64,000 bases of DNA from Sulfurovum sp. (GCF_015493435.1 NZ_WGDD01000032.1:26-64025); one strand, 5' to 3'. Positions 37,042 to 44,330 are shown, counted from the first letter of the stretch. Notes: a model not told the origin generated them from the sequence alone. Numbers and translations: made by a program.

Positions 37042-38874
37042 ATGCTACAACTTTTTCAACAGCTTTTTGGGAAAAAGCCCCATACCATACAGCTTCATAT
37101 CTCTTCAGCCAACGGTTTTCATCTTCGGCCCGTTGCGGAATTCGTCAACACGGCAAAAACATTCGCCTGTGACATCAGTGCCTTGCACCAGCACAAAAGC
37201 GTCAGTGCCAAAAGTGTCAATGCGCTGCTTTCCCTCGGGCTTGAAAAGGGGGACAGCTTTACACTGCTTGCCCGGGGCAAAGATGCCAAGGTGGCCACAG
37301 AAACACTTCAGGCACTCTTTGCACGTTTGATGCAGGAGGACAAAGAGGTCAGCACATTGGGCAAAGAGACCAAAGTCTATGACGGACAAATCATAGAGGG
37401 GGAGATTATTTCCAGAGGCGTGGTCATTGCACCTGTCTGCCGTTATGCGGAACGCGAATTTGCCACAGAAGCCAGGCTGGACTTTTCAGAAGCGCTTGCA
37501 AAAAGTTTGGATGAGCTGGAAATACTTTACCTTGCGCACAAAGAGGAGGAAAACGGCAGTATCTATCTTGCCCAGAAAGCACTTTTGCATGCTATAGCAG
37601 ACGATCTTGACTCATTTGAAACGTTTGAACTGACCATTGCAGAAGCGTCTGCCCATCTTACGGGAAGCAAAATGGCATCCAAGATCATAGACTATCAAGA
37701 TATTCTCCGGCGTGTCAAAAACCATATGGGGATCAAAACAGAAATGATCCTTCCTGAAACTTCCGCCATTCTTTTAGCCGAAGATCTTCTTCCCAGTCAG
37801 ATAACGCAACTTCGCAGCAGCCGTGTTGAGGGGGTGGTACTCAAGGAAACCACCCTGACATCACATACCGCCATTTTGCTGCGTGCTGCGGGTATTCCCT
37901 CGCTTATCGCCGACTACAGTACGGTGGAAGAGCACAGCAGGGTCATTCTTGATGCCAACAGCGGTATGATAGTGTCAAAACCGAGCGAAAAGGATCTTAC
38001 CGAAGCAGAAAAACGCAAAACAGAGGACAGAAAGCAAAGAAACATTGCTGCAAACAAACGTTTTGAAAAAGCACTGACCCGCACACAAAAACAGATTCAT
38101 ATCCTATCCAACGTCACCGATATCGATTCGGCAAAAGAAGCCAGGGCAGAAGGGGCGGAAGGGATTGGACTTTTGAGGACCGAATTTCTTTTTAAAAACA
38201 GAAAACCTTCCCTGGAAGAGCAAACAAAGGCGTACACAGAGATCTTTTCCTGTTTTGAAAATATTACCGTACGTACCCTGGATGTAGGCGGAGACAAAAA
38301 ACTGCCCTATCTCACGCTGCAGGAAGAGGACAACCCCTTCCTCGGCATACGGGGTATACGCCTGTTCAAAACACATCCACAGCTGATGGAAGAGCAGCTG
38401 CATGCTATCTTTCTGGCTGCCAATGGACGCCCGATCAAAGTGATGTTCCCCATGGTCAGCACCGTCGAAGAGTTCATGCACGCCAAAGCGTTTGCTTTCC
38501 GGACAGCGGAAAAATATGACCTTGACATTTCCGCTATGCTTTTCGGCATCATGGTAGAAGTACCTTCCGTACTCTTTTTGATCAAAAATTTCAACAGGGT
38601 CACGGACTTTTACTCCATCGGGACCAACGATCTCACACAATATTTGTTCGCCATAGAAAGAACCCACCCTTCGCTCAAAGTCGATGAACACTCTTCCGTA
38701 GTATTTGACGCCATCAAAACAGTCATTGACCAGGCAGACAAGCCGGTCAGCATCTGCGGAGAACTGGCTGCCGACCCTAAAGCTGTAGGGACACTGCTGA
38801 AGATCGGTATTGAGACACTGAGTGTATCACCCAAACGCATTGCAGCCACCAAAGAGGAGATCAGACATGTTTAG
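37042..38874 (+). CDS. PTS HPr-Enzyme I fusion (PEP-protein phosphotransferase)
   Basis: HPr motifs GFHLRP and AKSVNALLSLG; EI motifs TSHTAIL, GIGLLRTEF, RTLDVGGDK, NPFLGIRGIR, SIGTNDLTQY, ICGELA. Confidence 0.95.
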   Translation: MLQLFQQLFGKKPHTIQLHISSANGFHLRPVAEFVNTAKTFACDISALHQHKSVSAKSVNALLSLGLEKGDSFTLLARGKDAKVATETLQALFARLMQEDKEVSTLGKETKVYDGQIIEGEIISRGVVIAPVCRYAEREFATEARLDFSEALAKSLDELEILYLAHKEEENGSIYLAQKALLHAIADDLDSFETFELTIAEASAHLTGSKMASKIIDYQDILRRVKNHMGIKTEMILPETSAILLAEDLLPSQITQLRSSRVEGVVLKETTLTSHTAILLRAAGIPSLIADYSTVEEHSRVILDANSGMIVSKPSEKDLTEAEKRKTEDRKQRNIAANKRFEKALTRTQKQIHILSNVTDIDSAKEARAEGAEGIGLLRTEFLFKNRKPSLEEQTKAYTEIFSCFENITVRTLDVGGDKKLPYLTLQEEDNPFLGIRGIRLFKTHPQLMEEQLHAIFLAANGRPIKVMFPMVSTVEEFMHAKAFAFRTAEKYDLDISAMLFGIMVEVPSVLFLIKNFNRVTDFYSIGTNDLTQYLFAIERTHPSLKVDEHSSVVFDAIKTVIDQADKPVSICGELAADPKAVGTLLKIGIETLSVSPKRIAATKEEIRHV

Positions 38875-40255
38875 TCTTTTGCAAAAGATCGGCAAGGCAC
38901 TCATGACCCCTATTGCAGTATTGCCGGTTGCGGCACTGCTGCTGCGTCTGGGTTTTGGAGATATTTTCGACGGGCAGACCGCCCTCATTATGAAAAGTGC
39001 CGGAGAGACGGTGTTCGGCAACCTCGATCTGCTTTTTGGTATTGGTATTGCCTACGGACTGGCCAAGAACCACGATGGTGCCGCGGCACTTTCCGGTGCC
39101 ATCGGTGTGCTCATCGCCAAGGCCGTGTATGTCAGCATTGACAAAGATGTCAACATGGGAGTCTTTGTCGGGATCATCATCGGTGTCCTTGCCGGAACGC
39201 TCTACAACCGTTTTCACAATATCAGACTGCCGGAATTTCTCGGTTTTTTCGGAGGCAAACGTTTTGTTCCCATCATTACCTCTATTGCCGCTATATTTGT
39301 AGGTATACTTGCCGGATATTTCTGGCCTTATGTCCAAAACGGCATTGATGCTTTCTCCAATATGATCATCGGGCTTCATGAGTTCGGAACCTTCCTTTAC
39401 GGTGTACTCAACCGTCTGCTCATTCCACTGGGGCTGCATCATATTCTCAACTCGATCTTCTGGTTCCAGCTCGGAGAATATACCTATGTCAAGAACGGTG
39501 TGGAAATGGTAGCCAATGGAGATCTGCACCGTTTCTTTGCCGGAGACCCTACTGCCGGAATCTATATGTCGGGTTTTTATGTCGTGATGATGTTCGGACT
39601 GCCGGCCATGGCCCTGGCGATCTACCTCAACACGCCAAAAGCCTATCGGGTCAAAGCAGGTGCCATTCTTGCAGGGGTAGCTTTCACCTCCTTTTTGACC
39701 GGCATTACGGAACCGATGGAATTTCTTTTCCTCTTTGCTGCCCCGCAGCTTTTTATCCTGCATGCCGTTTTGACAGGCTTGGCACTTGCCACGGCACAAA
39801 TGCTCGATATTCATGCGGGATTCGGTTTTTCTGCAGGCTTTATCGACTATGTCATCAATTATAAACTGGCGACCAATCCCATTTTGATTTTACCGCTGGG
39901 TGCCGTGTTTGCAGTGATCTATTTCGTCTCAAGCTACTACCTGATCAAACTGCTTAAACTCAAAATCATGGAAACAGAACTCGCCGATGATACAAAAAAA
40001 GAGAACCCAAATACCTCTTCGGAAGCGGAAGCATTCATCGCAGCACTGGGAGGCAGAGAGAACATTCTGAACACCGATGCCTGTATCACCCGCCTGCGTA
40101 TGAATGTAAATGACAGCAGTTCCCTGGAAGACAAGGACTTTACAGCCTTGGGAGCCAAAGGGGTCATACGGCCGGACAAAGGCTCGATACAGATCATTCT
40201 GGGAACCAAAGCAGAAAAAGTGGCAGAAAAGATCAGAGATGTGCTGACCCGATAA
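38867..40255 (+). CDS. nagE: PTS N-acetylglucosamine-type EIICB
   Basis: LQKIGKALM.P.AVLP.A, GGKRFVP, LNRLLIPLGLHH, GDLHRFFAGDPTAG, TGITEP.EF; EIIB DACITRLR; start overlaps the EI stop. Confidence 0.9.
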   Translation: MFSLLQKIGKALMTPIAVLPVAALLLRLGFGDIFDGQTALIMKSAGETVFGNLDLLFGIGIAYGLAKNHDGAAALSGAIGVLIAKAVYVSIDKDVNMGVFVGIIIGVLAGTLYNRFHNIRLPEFLGFFGGKRFVPIITSIAAIFVGILAGYFWPYVQNGIDAFSNMIIGLHEFGTFLYGVLNRLLIPLGLHHILNSIFWFQLGEYTYVKNGVEMVANGDLHRFFAGDPTAGIYMSGFYVVMMFGLPAMALAIYLNTPKAYRVKAGAILAGVAFTSFLTGITEPMEFLFLFAAPQLFILHAVLTGLALATAQMLDIHAGFGFSAGFIDYVINYKLATNPILILPLGAVFAVIYFVSSYYLIKLLKLKIMETELADDTKKENPNTSSEAEAFIAALGGRENILNTDACITRLRMNVNDSSSLEDKDFTALGAKGVIRPDKGSIQIILGTKAEKVAEKIRDVLTR

Positions 40256-40315
40256 ACCCCGGGAAATCCTTGTTCTCCTGAAACCAATATGCTGCCTCTT
40301 CCAAAGTAGCGCCGA

Positions 40316-40348
40316 GGTAATACTGGGGTAATAGTCCTATCTTATAAT
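40316..40348 (+). promoter_or_regulatory. Promoter unit 1: direct-repeat operator plus -10 box
   Basis: GGTAAT-ACTGG-GGTAAT-AGTCCTATCT-TATAAT. Confidence 0.7.
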
Positions 40349-40434
40349 TTTGGGGTCGGACAGCAGATATCCGATACAATTATTTTATCCACAGTGATGC
40401 ATAGAACATTGCTGCGGTTTTCAAAGGACGAATC

Positions 40435-40638
40435 ATGAAAAAACTTCTTACATTTGCAAGCATACTTGCACTCACAAGCCTCTTTGCACATGCAAACGAT
40501 ATGGAAAAGGTAAAATCCACCATCACTATGGCGGCACAAGACACCACACAGGCAGCTCCAGGTGAAGAGCCACAGGTTCCGAAAACAAAACAGGACGACA
40601 AGAACAGCAGCGAAAAGGATCAGACAGAAAACAAATAA
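40435..40638 (+). CDS. Small secreted low-complexity protein (67 aa)
   Basis: AAAGGA RBS; signal peptide MKKLLTFASILALTSLFAHA with an AxA site; polar, probably disordered mature part. Confidence 0.75.
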   Translation: MKKLLTFASILALTSLFAHANDMEKVKSTITMAAQDTTQAAPGEEPQVPKTKQDDKNSSEKDQTENK

Positions 40639-40775
40639 CGTACCAAAAACATAACTCCTAAATTTTCCTTATACTCCTTCCCGGCAATATGCCGGGGCAT
40701 ATCATCCTTTTTCCATTTCATCATACCTTGTGATAGATATAGTAAACCAAAAACCGGCTGAAGTACGCTTCTGCA

Positions 40776-40808
40776 GGTAATAATAGAGTCACGGTATTGC
40801 ATTATACT
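40776..40808 (+). promoter_or_regulatory. Promoter unit 2 (second half-site degenerate)
   Basis: GGTAAT-AATAG-AGTCAC-GGTATTGCAT-TATACT, same spacing as units 1, 3 and 4. Confidence 0.55.
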
Positions 40809-40865
40809 TTAGGAGTTCGGATATTACCATATCCGAATCGGACAAACCACTCCAAAGGATAAACA

Positions 40866-40964
40866 ATGCAAGAACTTATTTTAGCCACCGTGCTTATTGC
40901 AATACTGACCCTCCCATTCAGTGTCTTCTTTACTACACTTATCTGGACCTTTCTATATCCGTAG
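40866..40964 (+). CDS. 32-aa single-pass membrane peptide (below the ORF-track cutoff)
   Basis: AAAGGA RBS; MQELILATVLIAILTLPFSVFFTTLIWTFLYP*; has its own promoter upstream. Confidence 0.6.
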   Translation: MQELILATVLIAILTLPFSVFFTTLIWTFLYP

Positions 40965-41000
40965 ACACAAAAAACCATTTATCTTAAATCATAGCAGACA

Positions 41001-41033
41001 GGTAATACTGAGGTAATACTCTTTCACTATAAT
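41001..41033 (+). promoter_or_regulatory. Promoter unit 3
   Basis: GGTAAT-ACTGA-GGTAAT-ACTCTTTCAC-TATAAT. Confidence 0.7.
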
Positions 41034-41035
41034 TT

Positions 41036-41146
41036 GACTGTATCAGATATTTGATACAGTCTTTTTCAAAGGAGTTCACAGAGAACATATAGCCCTCCAT
41101 TAGCCTTACTTCTTAAATTTTACTTACTCCGGCATTTTTGCCGGAG
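41036..41146 (+). ncRNA. Candidate sRNA, or an ORF-less relic of a small gene
   Basis: Follows promoter unit 3. 10-bp hairpin GACTGTATCA/TGATACAGTC, CU-rich middle, end hairpin CTCCGGCA/TGCCGGAG; no start codon after the AAAGGAG. Confidence 0.4.
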
Positions 41147-41242
41147 AGCAGATCGTATTCCACTTTTTTATACATCCCTGCACTTAAATCAAAATTTGCT
41201 ATAATCAATATAATTATTCACTATAATTCACAGGAGAGCCTA

Positions 41243-42046
41243 TTGAAACATTTTGTACTTATTGTTCTTTTGTTCCTTATGAATGGATGTTCAGTCAATG
41301 AACTGTTCCTATTTAATGAAATTAACCGGGTCACCCTTGTTAAATCCACTCCCGAGGTCAAACACTACAGAGCCTATTTTGCAAGAAGTGAGTTGAAACC
41401 GGTATGGAAAAAACAGAAATATCTTTTCCTCTATAATAGGCACAAGCATGATCTCGGCCTTGTACTGCGTCATCACAATACCTATACGCTGTACCATTTT
41501 TCCCACAGAAATCTTCCGGTGGTCAAACTGAAGATCACTTCCCGTCACAGAGAAAGACATATGCTGCATTCTTTTGCCAAGATAGGATACCGCACCGCAG
41601 ACTTGAAAGCACTCGGATACAGGACAAAAGTAGGGTTGCGCCGATACAAAGGGGTTAAAACACTCATGTTCGAAGTAAAAGATTATCACCGCCGGCCAAA
41701 AGAAAAAGAAGCAAATGAAAATCCAACACAGTCAACACAGGGACAGTCTGTTACTCTCATGGATACAGATTCGGAAAATACTCAGATAAAGCCTCTGTAC
41801 CCCTACTATCTGCACTACGCTTCGTCAGCTGAGCTGGACCGTTACCTCAAAGATCCCCAGACCGTCAAAACACTCAGCAGCGGCCAGCTGGCAAGCCTCA
41901 AAACACGTCTCTCCAAACTTCGGAAAGAAACACTTTTAACCGAAGGTTCCCTGGAAACACTGATAGAAGCGTACAAAAAGGACAAAGACCCTGAGATAAA
42001 AAAGCGTATCATGGTCTTGCTGAAACAGCAGCAGTCAAAGAACTAA
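41243..42046 (+). CDS. Hypothetical basic lipoprotein
   Basis: CAGGAG RBS, TTG start, lipobox LMNG-C; TGCTATAAT extended -10 at 41197-41205. Confidence 0.75.
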   Translation: MKHFVLIVLLFLMNGCSVNELFLFNEINRVTLVKSTPEVKHYRAYFARSELKPVWKKQKYLFLYNRHKHDLGLVLRHHNTYTLYHFSHRNLPVVKLKITSRHRERHMLHSFAKIGYRTADLKALGYRTKVGLRRYKGVKTLMFEVKDYHRRPKEKEANENPTQSTQGQSVTLMDTDSENTQIKPLYPYYLHYASSAELDRYLKDPQTVKTLSSGQLASLKTRLSKLRKETLLTEGSLETLIEAYKKDKDPEIKKRIMVLLKQQQSKN

Positions 42047-43089
42047 CCCATAATACGGGAAAGATCCAGGCGGATCTCCGTTCCCTGATGCACCTGGCTT
42101 TTAACTTCTATGCCGATATGCATTTCATCACAAAGTTTTTTCACGATATGCATCCCGATCCCTATGCCTCTCTCCTGTTCCTTGTAATAACGCCTGAATA
42201 CTTTTGAAGGTTCCTCAATACCTTTGCCTGTGTCTTTGATCGACAGTATCGTACCGCTGAACACAATAAAAACTTCTCCTGATGTTTTGTTGTACTTGCC
42301 TGCATTACTCAGGAGATTATCAAGTATCCGTATGAACGCATCTCTGTTTGTTACGATCTTAACTGCCGGAACATCGATGTGATAGGCAACATCCGAATAC
42401 AGTACCTGAAAATAAGAAACCCTTTCCCGGGTCAGCGTCTGAAGTTCGACATATTCTACCTGGGTACGTGCTTCCTGCAAAAAGACTTGTAAATTATTTT
42501 GGAGAGAAAGAATGGTTTCAATATTGTTTTCCACCCTTTGAATCTTCGGATTGGGACCGATCTCTTTTTTAAAAAGCTGAAAATTGATCTTCATCGAGGT
42601 AAGCGGTGTGTTGAAATCATGCAGAATATCTTTTACAAATTCTTCATTCAGACGCAGTGCCCTGTGCAGAGGCAACAGGGCATAAATGGAAAATAAAAAC
42701 GAAATAAGTGCTGCAACCAGGGAATAAAGCAGAAATCTCTTCTCCAGAAGTACTTTTATCTCCTGAATATGTGCTTCGTATTTGGTTCTGGGATAGACCA
42801 CTTTCATGAGAGATTTCTTGACATTCGGCAGTGCAAAATAACTGATGAAATCGTTATCCTTGTACAGAATATTTTCTTCTGTATCTTTTCCCTTGTCGAC
42901 AAAATCCGTTTTCAAGCCTTCACACTGCACCGTATAGGCACATAGTTTCATTTCTATTTCAATCTTTTTTTCAAGCTCGATCTTTTTAACTCTGAATTCA
43001 TACCAGAAATTAATAGCCAGCAGTATTTCGAGCAGTATCAGAAAAATAAAAAAACTTTTGACAAAAGACTCTACCTCATACGTTTTCAA
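42043..43089 (-). CDS. Sensor histidine kinase
   Basis: Two TM helices, H-box ILHDFNTPL, N-box NLLSNAGKY, DTGKGI, G.GIGMHIV. Confidence 0.95.
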   Translation of the reverse strand: MKTYEVESFVKSFFIFLILLEILLAINFWYEFRVKKIELEKKIEIEMKLCAYTVQCEGLKTDFVDKGKDTEENILYKDNDFISYFALPNVKKSLMKVVYPRTKYEAHIQEIKVLLEKRFLLYSLVAALISFLFSIYALLPLHRALRLNEEFVKDILHDFNTPLTSMKINFQLFKKEIGPNPKIQRVENNIETILSLQNNLQVFLQEARTQVEYVELQTLTRERVSYFQVLYSDVAYHIDVPAVKIVTNRDAFIRILDNLLSNAGKYNKTSGEVFIVFSGTILSIKDTGKGIEEPSKVFRRYYKEQERGIGIGMHIVKKLCDEMHIGIEVKSQVHQGTEIRLDLSRIMG

Positions 43090-43711
43090 TCATATACCCC
43101 TGCCCCCTGATATTTCTGATCTCGATACCCAGTTTGTTTTTCAGTTTTGCCAGATTGACCCTTAATGCATTGGCACTCGGCTGTTCAAGCATATCCATGA
43201 GGGTATAGCTGCTGACAATTTTATTTTGTTCCGTGATCAGACTGTGAAAAAGATTATGCTGTACTTCTCCGAGAATAACTGTTTTCCCCTCTTTCTCTAT
43301 GACTCGTGAAACCGGATCATAGCGAATATCGCCAAGAACGATCCATTGGCCCGTTCGTTCATATTTGTTCTTGATACGGATGATCAGTTCTTCGGGATCG
43401 AAAGGTTTTTTAATATAATCTTCCGCACCGATCTCAAACCCTCTGGAAATTGAATTGATATCCGTCAATGCTGTAATATAGATCGCAGGGGTATCATCTC
43501 CCGCTTCTCTGAGTGCGGAAAGGACATCAAAGCCGTCCGTGTCAGGCACATTGATATCTAAAATATAAAGATCATACACCGTAGGAAATGTCAAATCGAA
43601 CACTTCGGTACCGCGATGAGCCTTATCGACATCGTATCCTTCATATTCCAGCAGCTCTTTCAGGCTGTCACACAGTATTTTGTCATCTTCAAGCAATAAT
43701 ATTTTCATCAT
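43076..43711 (-). CDS. OmpR/PhoB-family response regulator
   Basis: LLLEDD, ILDINVP, GAEDYIKKPF, C-terminal winged helix LRVNLAKLK...IRGQGY. Confidence 0.95.
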   Translation of the reverse strand: MMKILLLEDDKILCDSLKELLEYEGYDVDKAHRGTEVFDLTFPTVYDLYILDINVPDTDGFDVLSALREAGDDTPAIYITALTDINSISRGFEIGAEDYIKKPFDPEELIIRIKNKYERTGQWIVLGDIRYDPVSRVIEKEGKTVILGEVQHNLFHSLITEQNKIVSSYTLMDMLEQPSANALRVNLAKLKNKLGIEIRNIRGQGYMIENV

Positions 43712-43718
43712 AGTTCAT

Positions 43719-43751
43719 ACTATATAAGAAATGGCTTACCCAAACATTACC
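43719..43751 (-). promoter_or_regulatory. Promoter unit 4, upstream of the response regulator (likely autoregulatory, leaderless mRNA)
   Basis: Minus strand GGTAAT-GTTTG-GGTAAG-CCATTTCTTA-TATAGT; ATG 7 nt after the -10, with no SD. Confidence 0.65.
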
Positions 43752-43859
43752 TGAAGTTCTGAACCTATTTTTTTTTCTTTGGACTCTTCAAAACAATAAA
43801 AAAAATAACAAGTACAACAGCATAGGCTACGTAATGATAGATATTATCCCCCCGTGGCA

Positions 43860-44330
43860 TTATTTTACCTCCATGATCAGATCGGCACATTTTACGATCT
43901 TTATTGTTTTTTCTATTTCCCTGACGTCACTTTCATCGGAGACAATGACGGGAGTGACTATATCTTTGGCATGTTCGGTAATATAGGGCAGGTCAACCCT
44001 GATCACAGGATCGCCCGCCTTGATCTCGTCACCTTCGTTCGCAAGCCGTTCAAAGCCCTCTCCGTTCAGAGAAACCGTATCAAGACCGATATGGACCATC
44101 ACTTCCAGATCTTTGTCGCTTTTGATACTGTACGCGTGGTTGGTCGTAAATATCTTGGTTATTGTTCCGTCTATGGGAGCACAGAAAGTATTGGAAACCG
44201 GAATGACCGCAACACCGTCACCCACCATTTTAGCGGAAAAGACCTCATCGTCCACTTTTTCTATTTCTATGACCTGACCGTCTACCGGAGAAAGAATCTC
44301 TCTATTTTTTCGTTTTAAAAATCCAAACAC
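43860..44330 (-). CDS. PTS EIIA, glucose/GlcNAc family
   Basis: FSAKMVGDGVAV.P, FTTNHAY, VHIGLDTVSL.GEGF. Confidence 0.93.
   Translation of the reverse strand: MFGFLKRKNREILSPVDGQVIEIEKVDDEVFSAKMVGDGVAVIPVSNTFCAPIDGTITKIFTTNHAYSIKSDKDLEVMVHIGLDTVSLNGEGFERLANEGDEIKAGDPVIRVDLPYITEHAKDIVTPVIVSDESDVREIEKTIKIVKCADLIMEVK

What the first reader, a model, noticed from the sequence alone, without database searches (positions are those of the whole stretch)
40995..41150. ORF-less paralog of transcription unit 1: candidate regulator-controlled sRNA
Seen: unit 3 mirrors unit 1 in its promoter (AGGTAATACTG[A/G]GGTAATA), RBS context (TTTTCAAAGGA at 41063-41072 vs 40418-40428) and 3' end (TAAATTTTACTTACTCCGGCA-tttt-TGCCGG vs TAAATTTTCCTTATACTCCTTCCCGGCA-ata-TGCCGG). 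No start codon follows its RBS, and only about 110 nt lie between promoter and end hairpin. It holds a perfect 10-bp stem and anti-SD-like CCCTCC, CCTT and ACTCC tracts. Established: Hfq-less Campylobacter and Helicobacter sRNAs often use CU-rich single strands to pair with G-rich targets. Inference: either a trans-acting sRNA that arose by duplication and ORF loss, or a decaying small gene.
Basis: partly seen in the sequence, partly recalled or inferred. Interest (0 to 1): 0.62.

Follow-up and report, generated by a model that had tools for sequence, protein, structure and literature searches.

The report
ORF-less copy of a regulated small gene
This 150-base stretch is a duplicate of a neighbouring small secreted-protein gene that has lost its coding part but kept its regulator-controlled promoter and both RNA hairpins, so it probably still makes a short non-coding RNA; whether that RNA regulates anything is not shown.

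Summary
Unit 3 (41000-41146) has two perfect GGTAATA repeats 11 bp apart, then TATAAT 9 nt on, a hairpin, the 11-mer TTTTCAAAGGA, no start codon, a C/U-rich tract and a CCGG hairpin, each matching unit 1.

Comparison with 13 related vent Campylobacterota (Sulfurovum-like) loci shows unit 1 belongs to a conserved family: box promoter, 5'-terminal stem-loop, SD, 66-75 aa secreted protein, C/U-rich 3'UTR, covarying hairpin. Unit 3 is that cassette with about 195 nt removed, from 6 nt before the ATG to 4 codons before the stop. The same box precedes the adjacent OmpR-type regulator gene, so that regulator probably controls it. In relatives, a box promoter at this position drives the downstream lipoprotein gene.

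The second haplotype has no change in 74 central nt and one compensatory pair in the 3' hairpin. That suggests constraint, but template switching could also explain it.

There are no RNA data, no orthologue outside the species, no U-tract at the 3' hairpin and no convincing target.

Best reading: a transcribed gene relic acting mainly in cis (0.5). A trans-acting sRNA remains possible (about 0.25).

The parts
41000..41018 (+). Unit 3 regulator box: A-GGTAATA-CTGA-GGTAATA. Two 7-bp direct repeats with an 11-bp period, in the place of a -35 element.
   Evidence: (D1). The family consensus is (A/G)GTAAnn-N4-(A/G)GTAAnn. The T>C at 41017 in haplotype X5/X6 falls on a position that varies in the family.
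41028..41033 (+). -10 hexamer TATAAT, 9 nt after the second repeat.
   Evidence: The same 9-nt spacing is seen in all family promoters.
41036..41061 (+). 26-nt palindrome. The RNA part (G41040-C41057) is a 7-bp 5'-terminal stem-loop. G41040 is the 7th nt after the -10 and is the predicted TSS.
   Evidence: (I4). All 15 family units have a stem-loop that starts at or within 2 nt of this conserved G, with different stem sequences.
41063..41074 (+). Orphan Shine-Dalgarno context TTTTCAAAGGAG, identical over 11 nt to unit 1. No start codon follows it.
   Evidence: D10.
41078..41092 (+). Remnant of the last ~4 codons and the stop (TAG 41090-41092) of the lost ORF. It aligns with unit 1 at 40624-40638.
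41093..41126 (+). C/U-rich, G-poor former 3'UTR (CCCTCC, CCTTACTTCTT). It includes the family motif TAAATTTTACTT at 41114-41125.
   Evidence: (D7). There are no substitutions against L001 across 41052-41125.
41127..41146 (+). 3' hairpin CTCCGGCA-TTTT-TGCCGGAG (8 bp). No U-tract is adjacent; the nearest T6 run is at 41164-41169.
   Evidence: family covariation. The pair 41133/41140 is C-G in the window and T-A in L001 and X11.
40315..40698 (+). Unit 1, the intact paralogue: box, -10, 5' stem-loop, SD, 67-aa secreted-protein ORF (40435-40638), C/U-rich 3'UTR and hairpin (40680-40698).
40775..40964 (+). Unit 2: a box with a degenerate second repeat, a 9-bp stem-loop, an SD and a 32-aa hydrophobic ORF (40866-40964). 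It has no hairpin of its own after the ORF, so its transcript would run into unit 3.
   Evidence: The ORF resembles a truncated form of the 66-73 aa second small protein of L022, L036 and L055.
41197..41205 (+). Proximal extended -10 promoter of the lipoprotein gene (TGCTATAAT), preceded by TTAAATC.
   Evidence: It is homologous to TAGATTAAT-N8-TGCTATACT, which lies upstream of every lipoprotein orthologue, including loci that have no small units.
41243..42046 (+). Lipoprotein gene (TTG start, lipobox LMNGCS), family unknown.
43719..43751 (-). The same box (GGTAATG-TTTG-GGTAAGC, then 9 nt, then TATAGT), 7 nt upstream of the response-regulator start codon.
   Evidence: It is conserved in L001 and in L009/L010.
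42043..43711 (-). Histidine kinase (42043-43089) and OmpR/PhoB-family response regulator (43076-43711).

Best explanation
Unit 3 is a relic of a duplicated small secreted-protein gene of the unit-1 family. One deletion of about 195 nt removed everything from 6 nt before the start codon to 4 codons before the stop. The deletion left the full non-coding cassette:
- an OmpR/PhoB-style direct-repeat box that replaces the -35 element;
- a perfect -10;
- a 5'-terminal stem-loop;
- an orphan SD;
- a C/U-rich former 3'UTR;
- a GC-rich 3' hairpin.

Inferred steps:
1. When the adjacent two-component system is active, its response regulator binds the box and starts transcription at about G41040.
2. Part of the transcripts end at, or are trimmed back to, the 3' hairpin. 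That would give a non-coding RNA of about 107-130 nt.
3. The hairpin has no adjacent U-tract, so part of the transcripts run on through the proximal promoter into the lipoprotein gene.

On this reading the retained role is mainly in cis. Unit 3 stands where relatives have the regulator-dependent promoter P2 of the lipoprotein gene. Its hairpin also gives a 3' end to the hairpin-less unit 2 transcript.

Shown: the homology, the deletion map, the conserved cassette, the box at the regulator gene, and the position equivalent to P2.
Inferred: regulator binding, the TSS, partial termination and read-through.
For: - Homology and deletion map: unit 3 aligns best to the window's own unit 1 (score 115 against 85 or less for any relative). 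The blocks are 40314-40428 with 41000-41073 and 40624 onward with 41078 onward. TAG 41090-41092 aligns with the TAA of unit 1.
- Family cassette: it is conserved in 13 loci whose lipoprotein is only 33-44% identical.
- 5' stem-loop: it starts at the conserved G, 7 nt after the -10, in all 15 units, with different stem sequences.
- 3' hairpin: 8 of 14 pairs change on both sides, and 0-1 of 500 shuffles reach the observed values.
- Link to the regulator: the same box with the same spacing lies 7 nt from the response-regulator start and is conserved in L001 and L009. The regulator is OmpR/PhoB family.
- Position: in L009, L013, L017, L021 and L041 a box promoter lies 118-160 nt upstream of the lipoprotein start with no hairpin in between.
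- Persistence: unit 3 is present and ORF-less in all three haplotypes.
- Rate: 4 of 110 sites differ in the RNA, against 9.8% at 4-fold sites (P = 0.014). None of 74 sites differs in 41052-41125 (P = 0.0005 at 9.8%, P = 0.02 at the 5% intergenic rate).
- Compensatory change: the C-G to T-A change in the 3' hairpin has a chance of about 0.006 of arising from four random substitutions.
- Termination: no U-tract follows the hairpin, and the terminator scan did not list it.
Against: - No transcript evidence of any kind.
- Regulator binding is inferred from geometry and from the site at the regulator's own gene.
- The lipoprotein gene has its own conserved proximal promoter, so it does not need unit 3.
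- A maintained hairpin between promoter and gene argues somewhat against a pure read-through role.
- The low substitution count is no different from the average for coding DNA (3.6% against 3.8%).
- Both the compensatory pair and the 41051 T>C change, which makes the palindrome perfect, can arise without selection by template switching in quasi-palindromes.
- The spacer shows much turnover: unit 2 is truncated, unit 1 has a 37-nt insert in its leader, L019 holds a decayed second unit, and P2 of L032 is degenerate. An inert relic therefore cannot be excluded.
Confidence: 0.5

Rival explanations
1. Stand-alone trans-acting sRNA. Unit 3 would be a discrete RNA of about 107 nt, induced by the regulator. 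Its single-stranded C/U-rich stretch (CCCUCC, CCUUACUUCUU) would pair with G-rich ribosome-binding sites (AAGGA, GGAG) of mRNAs and repress translation without Hfq. It would have been born from an mRNA and so inherited membership of the parental regulon.
For: - It has its own intact promoter, no ORF, and a 3' hairpin kept paired by a compensatory change.
- There are no substitutions in the 74-nt central region.
- The family's 3'UTRs are consistently C/U-rich. In L017, L021, L022 and L055 the hairpin loop itself is C/U-rich (CCCUCC, CUCCCUU).
- C/U-rich sRNAs that target G-rich RBSs are established in Hfq-less Campylobacter and Helicobacter (PMC8687705).
- An sRNA arising from an mRNA fragment and staying in the parental regulon is documented for OxyS (PMC8825220).
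- A 3'UTR sRNA from a two-component-system-controlled small periplasmic-protein mRNA is documented for CpxQ (PMC4817254).
- In a long transcript, GCCCUCC (41092-41098) is predicted to pair with the lipoprotein SD GGAGAGC (41233-41239).
Against: - No expression data.
- Found in one species only, so covariation rests on one event.
- In the predicted fold the C/U tracts lie in an interior loop and partly pair with the RNA's own SD, not in a hairpin loop.
- The best duplex with 58 translation-initiation regions of the window (-24.1 kcal/mol) is no better than for shuffled sequence (mean best -26.9; 88% of shuffles do as well).
- C-rich, G-poor 3'UTRs may simply be Rho loading sites.
- The hairpin lacks the U-tail of a typical sRNA terminator.
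Confidence: 0.25
2. Inert pseudogene remnant. The promoter is no longer used, or its transcript has no selected effect. The sequence persists only because the deletion is recent relative to the rate at which bacteria purge DNA.
For: - The spacer between the EIIBC and lipoprotein genes gains and loses small units freely. Many relatives have none (70-145 nt spacers).
- Others hold truncated or decayed units (L019, L032, the window's unit 2).
- Unit 3 is known only within about 4% divergence.
- Its overall substitution rate is not significantly below the intergenic average of 5% (P = 0.35).
Against: - The box and -10 are the best matches to the family consensus of any unit, in all three haplotypes.
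- Zero of 74 central sites changed (P = 0.02 even at the intergenic rate).
- All four changes in the RNA are neutral to structure or improve it.
Confidence: 0.17
3. Dead-end or attenuator promoter. Transcription stops at the first hairpin and its U-tract (41036-41066). Unit 3 would then yield only a ~25-nt RNA, or would act as a decoy site that titrates the regulator.
For: The terminator scan lists this hairpin with TTTTT directly after it (11 pairs).
Against: - If the TSS is the family-conserved G (41040), only 7 A/U-rich pairs (-6.3 kcal/mol) are in the RNA, and the U-run starts 4 nt after the stem.
- Homologous 5' stem-loops in 14 other units sit in front of translated ORFs, so they do not terminate.
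Confidence: 0.08

Closest known systems
OxyS, an sRNA that evolved from a fragment of a peroxidase mRNA and stayed in the OxyR regulon (PMC8825220)
   Same: A non-coding unit derived from a protein-coding gene. It keeps the parental regulator's binding site and promoter, so it is automatically part of the parental regulon.
   Different: OxyS is expressed, has known targets and is conserved across Enterobacteriaceae. Here expression and targets are unknown. The unit is confined to one species, and the intact paralogue still sits 680 bp upstream.
CpxQ, an sRNA from the 3'UTR of cpxP, which encodes a small periplasmic protein induced by the Cpx two-component system (PMC4817254)
   Same: A small exported protein gene, controlled by a two-component system, whose 3'UTR and terminal hairpin are conserved. 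Unit 3 is essentially that promoter joined to that 3'UTR.
   Different: CpxQ is cut out by RNase E and works with Hfq, and Campylobacterota are reported to lack Hfq (PMC8687705). No processing or function is shown here. The C/U-rich 3'UTR may be only a Rho loading site or a 3'-end stabiliser.
RepG (H. pylori) and CJnc190 (C. jejuni), C/U-rich sRNAs that target G-rich ribosome-binding sites (PMC8687705)
   Same: Same phylum, Hfq-independent setting, and C/U-rich sequence complementary to AAGGA/GGAG-type SDs.
   Different: In RepG and CJnc190 the C/U-rich element is a hairpin loop. In unit 3 it lies between two hairpins and is partly paired with the unit's own SD in the predicted fold. There is no sequence homology and no Rfam match.
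Pho-box type class II promoters of OmpR/PhoB-family regulators (own knowledge)
   Same: Two 7-bp direct repeats with an 11-bp period, lying 9-10 nt upstream of the -10 and replacing the -35. A copy lies in front of the regulator's own operon.
   Different: The repeat sequence (GGTAATA) is different. The regulator falls below every NCBIfam equivalog cut-off, and binding has not been tested.

Membership tests
OmpR/PhoB-type direct-repeat (pho-box-like) promoter | Two ~7-bp direct repeats with an 11-bp centre-to-centre period | tested here: met
   GGTAATA-N4-GGTAATA at 41001-41018. It is the same in unit 1 and in 20+ promoters of relatives.
OmpR/PhoB-type direct-repeat (pho-box-like) promoter | Repeats replace the -35 at a fixed distance from a good -10 | tested here: met
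   9 nt to TATAAT or TATACT in every case. The sigma-70 scan finds no -35/-10 pair here.
OmpR/PhoB-type direct-repeat (pho-box-like) promoter | A cognate winged-helix response regulator that binds the repeats | not testable with these tools
   The adjacent regulator has Response_reg and Trans_reg_C domains, and the same box precedes its gene. Binding itself is inferred.
Trans-acting base-pairing sRNA (RepG/CJnc190-like) | Own promoter and no ORF | tested here: met
   Predicted promoter. No start codon on the + strand. The minus-strand 38-aa ORF takes 4 amino-acid changes from 5 nt changes in L001, so it is spurious.
Trans-acting base-pairing sRNA (RepG/CJnc190-like) | Discrete transcript with a defined 3' end | not testable with these tools
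   No RNA runs hold the stretch. A hairpin is present but has no U-tail.
Trans-acting base-pairing sRNA (RepG/CJnc190-like) | Accessible C/U-rich seed in a hairpin loop | tested here: not met
   In the MFE and centroid folds the tracts lie in an interior loop, and ACUUCUU pairs with the unit's own AAGGAGU.
Trans-acting base-pairing sRNA (RepG/CJnc190-like) | Target complementarity above background | tested here: inconclusive
   Only the 58 initiation regions of the window could be tested, and they were no better than shuffles.
Canonical intrinsic terminator (3' hairpin 41127-41146) | GC-rich stem-loop | tested here: met
   8 bp, 6 of them G-C, with a 4-nt loop. Family covariation supports it.
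Canonical intrinsic terminator (3' hairpin 41127-41146) | U-tract within 0-2 nt of the stem | tested here: not met
   The stem is followed by AGCAGATCGTATTCCAC, and the T6 run starts 18 nt later. The scan does not list it.
mRNA-derived non-coding unit (OxyS-type origin) | Flank homology to a protein-coding gene, with the coding part missing | tested here: met
   (5' block, 3' block, ~195-nt gap).
mRNA-derived non-coding unit (OxyS-type origin) | Expressed and regulatory | not testable with these tools
   No RNA data are available.
Any Rfam family | Covariance-model match | tested here: not met
   Nothing in 38000-44000 comes near a gathering score, even at E up to 10.

The most novel reading that the evidence does not exclude
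Sulfurovum-like bacteria may carry a family of small exported-protein mRNAs, controlled by a two-component system, whose conserved C/U-rich 3'UTR and hairpin form a regulatory RNA module analogous to CpxP/CpxQ in an Hfq-less phylum. Unit 3 would then be a caught-in-the-act conversion of such an mRNA into a stand-alone sRNA by clean excision of the ORF. It would remain in the parental regulon and might target the SD of the neighbouring lipoprotein mRNA or other G-rich RBSs.
Probability: 0.22. Interest if true: 0.65.

Novelty: new member of a known kind. Interest (0 to 1): 0.4.

Why it matters
If unit 3 is transcribed and functional, it would be a very young example of how bacteria make new non-coding RNAs from duplicated genes while inheriting the parental regulator. 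It would be the first from deep-sea Campylobacterota, where no sRNA biology is known to me.

Even as a relic it is useful:
- It helps define a compact regulon of an uncharacterised two-component system: four promoters in the window and more than 20 in relatives.
- It defines a conserved small secreted-protein cassette with RNA structures at both ends.

If it is only debris, the finding is ordinary genome turnover.

Tried and rejected
- Rfam at a permissive threshold over 38000-44000 gave nothing relevant.
- Hidden ORFs. No ATG, GTG or TTG follows the SD. The only alternative, ATA-TAG, would be a start-stop with 12-nt spacing, which is not credible. The minus-strand 38-aa ORF (40984-41100) is rejected because all its amino-acid-affecting differences in L001 are non-synonymous and it overlaps the promoter.
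- Palindrome as a repressor operator. The 26-nt palindrome overlaps the TSS, and in L001 it becomes perfect. However, the 14 homologous units carry hairpins of different sequence at the same place, which fits an RNA 5' stem-loop better than a shared protein site. This is not fully excluded for unit 3, whose stem extends 4 bp upstream of the likely TSS.
- First hairpin as a terminator: judged unlikely (see the rival explanations).
- Target search with RNAduplex against 58 initiation regions in the window was uninformative.
- RNA-seq or metatranscriptome runs: none listed for 861-nt or 221-nt queries.
- Genome-contig scan with the lipoprotein found no relative. The promoter pattern found only unrelated uses in Sulfurovum sp. 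CS9, a MAG and a chance hit in Colwellia.
The rest of the genome could therefore not be searched for further boxes, further copies of unit 3 or targets.
- A decayed P2 directly after the 3' hairpin (GGAGAGC-AGAT-CGTATTC, 8 nt, TATACA at 41170-41175): the resemblance is too weak to claim.

Full report
**Tools.** The window's whole genome could not be searched.

**What is in the sequence**

The finding lies in a spacer of about 1 kb (40256-41242).
- Upstream is a PTS EIIBC gene (38822-40255, +).
- Downstream is a lipoprotein gene (TTG 41243-42046, +).
- The lipoprotein gene converges on a histidine-kinase and OmpR-family response-regulator operon (42043-43711, -).

The spacer holds three tandem units.

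Unit 3 consists of the following parts:

| Part | Coordinates |
|---|---|
| Box A-GGTAATA-CTGA-GGTAATA | 41000-41018 |
| 9-nt spacer, then TATAAT | 41028-41033 |
| 26-nt palindrome | 41036-41061 |
| TTTTCAAAGGA | 41063-41073 |
| No start codon | after the SD |
| C/U-rich tract | 41093-41126 |
| CTCCGGCA-TTTT-TGCCGGAG | 41127-41146 |

The box occurs only twice in 64 kb at up to 2 mismatches, against 0.24 expected. The promoter blocks of units 1 and 3 are 81% identical, the SD context is 11 of 11 identical, and the 3' motif is 88% identical.

**Origin**

The window comes from a hydrothermal-vent Campylobacterota organism. DNA runs that hold it are vent metagenomes, and the lipoprotein's named relative is from a Sulfurovum sp. 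MAG.

I retrieved 13 informative syntenic loci through lipoprotein homologues.

Many relatives have only 70-145 nt between the EIIBC and lipoprotein genes.

Others carry a conserved cassette (L009, L013, L017, L019, L021, L022, L031, L032, L036, L041, L055):
- a box promoter (absent or degenerate in L031);
- a 5'-terminal stem-loop;
- an AAAGGA SD;
- a 66-75 aa protein with a signal peptide;
- a C/U-rich 3'UTR, often TAAATTTCCTTTC;
- a CCGG-core hairpin.

The stem-loop starts at a conserved G, 7 nt after the -10, in all 15 units, with different stem sequences. In the 3' hairpin, 8 of 14 pairs change on both sides, and 0-1 of 500 shuffles reach the observed values.

Unit 3 aligns best to the window's own unit 1 (score 115 against 85 or less for relatives).
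- 40314-40428 matches 41000-41073.
- 40624 onward matches 41078 onward.
- TAG 41090-41092 lies on unit 1's TAA.

Unit 3 is therefore this cassette minus about 195 nt, from 6 nt before the ATG to codon 63 of 67. It also lacks a 37-nt insert found in unit 1's leader.

**Regulator**

The same box with the same 9-nt spacing to a -10 (TATAGT) lies 7 nt upstream of the response-regulator start codon (43751-43719, -). It is conserved in L001 and in L009/L010. This matches the geometry of Pho-box-type class II promoters (own knowledge) and an autoregulated two-component system.

Binding itself is inferred.

**Position**

In L009, L013, L017, L021 and L041 a second box promoter (P2) lies 118-160 nt upstream of the lipoprotein start with no hairpin in between. 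In L022, L036 and L055, P2 drives a second small protein (66-73 aa).

All lipoprotein genes also have a conserved proximal promoter, TAGATTAAT-N8-TGCTATACT. In the window it is TTAAATC...TGCTATAAT, with the extended -10 at 41197-41205.

Unit 3 is thus the box promoter nearest the lipoprotein gene, in the place of P2. Unlike P2, it has a hairpin in between.

**Is it under selection?**

Three haplotypes of the species are available: the window and X1, X5 and X6, and L001, L014 and X11. All carry unit 3 without an ORF.

Window against L001:

| Measure | Value |
|---|---|
| 4-fold site divergence | 9.8% (80/818) |
| Third codon positions | 8.0% |
| Non-coding spacer | about 5% |
| Coding DNA overall | 3.8% |
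| Unit 3 RNA | 4/110 (P = 0.014 against 9.8%; P = 0.35 against 5%) |
| 41052-41125 | 0/74 (P = 0.0005 against 9.8%; P = 0.02 against 5%) |

The four changes in the unit 3 RNA are:
- 41051 T>C, in the loop, which makes the palindrome perfect;
- 41126 A>G, just before the hairpin;
- the pair 41133 C>T and 41140 G>A, which turns a C-G pair into T-A.

A compensatory double hit has a chance of about 0.006 if four substitutions fall at random. This suggests the hairpin mattered after the ORF was lost.

Two caveats apply. It is a single event. Template switching in quasi-palindromes can also produce both the paired change and the perfected palindrome without selection.

**Does it end as a short RNA?**

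The 3' hairpin is strong but has no adjacent U-tract. The scan does not list it, and the nearest T6 run is 18 nt away. The homologous hairpins of relatives are similar. The lipoprotein and kinase genes overlap by 4 nt with no terminator between them. Hairpins in this organism may therefore mark or stabilise 3' ends rather than terminate efficiently.

Unit 2 has no hairpin of its own, so unit 3's hairpin may also serve that transcript.

The first hairpin with its U-run looks like a terminator in DNA. From the family TSS, only 7 weak pairs are in the RNA, and the same element precedes translated ORFs in 14 other units.

**sRNA function**

Points against or untested:
- No Rfam match and no RNA runs.
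- The C/U tracts sit in an interior loop, and ACUUCUU pairs with the unit's own AAGGAGU.
- Duplexes with the 58 initiation regions of the window are no better than for shuffled sequence.

Points in favour:
- The family's 3'UTRs are consistently C/U-rich.
- In L017, L021, L022 and L055 the hairpin loop itself reads CCCUCC or CUCCCUU.
- In a read-through transcript, GCCCUCC (41092-41098) is predicted to pair with the lipoprotein SD (41233-41239).

Literature precedents exist:
- C/U-rich sRNAs in Hfq-less Campylobacter and Helicobacter (PMC8687705);
- OxyS, born from a peroxidase mRNA within the OxyR regulon (PMC8825220);
- CpxQ, from the cpxP 3'UTR (PMC4817254).

C-rich, G-poor 3'UTRs could equally be Rho loading sites (own knowledge).

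**Verdict**

| Reading | Confidence |
|---|---|
| Regulator-controlled, probably transcribed relic acting mainly in cis (supplies regulator-dependent transcription toward the lipoprotein gene and a 3' end for unit 2) | 0.5 |
| Stand-alone trans-acting sRNA | 0.25 |
| Inert pseudogene | 0.17 |
| Dead-end promoter or attenuator | 0.08 |

It is a new member of a known kind, a gene-derived non-coding unit. Interest is moderate.

Noticed in passing
L006 3990-4390 (-) (Sulfurovum sp. CS9, NZ_CP180410.1) and L008 150-670 (-): The same GGTAATA-N4-GGTAATA box promoters stand between tandem c-di-GMP-I-GGC riboswitch aptamers (RF03167, 60-62 bits, two per locus), upstream of a lipoprotein gene. One box promoter drives an aptamer with no ORF before the next box promoter.
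   Followed up: partly
window 41243; L002, L003, L009, L013, L017, L019, L021, L022, L031, L032, L036, L041, L055: Every orthologue of the lipoprotein gene starts with TTG (GTG in L021 and L031), never ATG. Each has a conserved proximal promoter TAGATTAAT-N8-TGCTATACT. The protein family has no Pfam or NCBIfam match.
   Followed up: partly
window 42043-42046: The lipoprotein gene and the histidine-kinase gene converge and overlap by 4 nt with no terminator between them. In L009 the overlap is 23 nt. Regulator-activated transcription of the spacer units and the lipoprotein gene would therefore run antisense into the regulator's own operon.
   Followed up: no
window 43711-43751 (-): The response-regulator mRNA looks leaderless. 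The -10 (TATAGT) ends 7 nt before the ATG, and there is no SD.
   Followed up: no
window 40866-40964; L022, L036, L055: The 32-aa ORF of unit 2 looks like a truncated remnant of a second small secreted protein (66-73 aa, motif FTVTxIxLD) that follows promoter P2 in L022, L036 and L055. In L001 it shows 2 amino-acid changes and 3 silent changes.
   Followed up: partly
window 40380-40417 and 40876-40892: Unit 1's leader contains a 37-nt insert that is absent from unit 3 and from relatives. Its start (TTATTTTATCCACAGTG) is 88% identical to the beginning of unit 2's ORF. The spacer is therefore a recombination patchwork (D6).
   Followed up: no
L021, L022, L031, L036, L055 (start of the spacer): The stop codon TAA of the EIIBC gene lies inside the first repeat of the unit 1 box (…GG TAA T…). 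The regulator site therefore overlaps the end of the upstream gene.
   Followed up: no
L019 466-700 of the spacer: This is a second, independent decayed unit: a box promoter, a stem-loop that sequesters the SD, an 18-codon ORF remnant, a C/U-rich stretch and a hairpin, 300 nt upstream of the lipoprotein gene. It parallels unit 3.
   Followed up: partly
window 40998-41033 in runs X1 and X11: Short contigs at 5-7 times higher depth (127 and 90 against 18 and 14) match only the 36-nt promoter block of unit 3, with 6 differences. Another, more abundant organism in the same vents appears to use the same box promoter.
   Followed up: no
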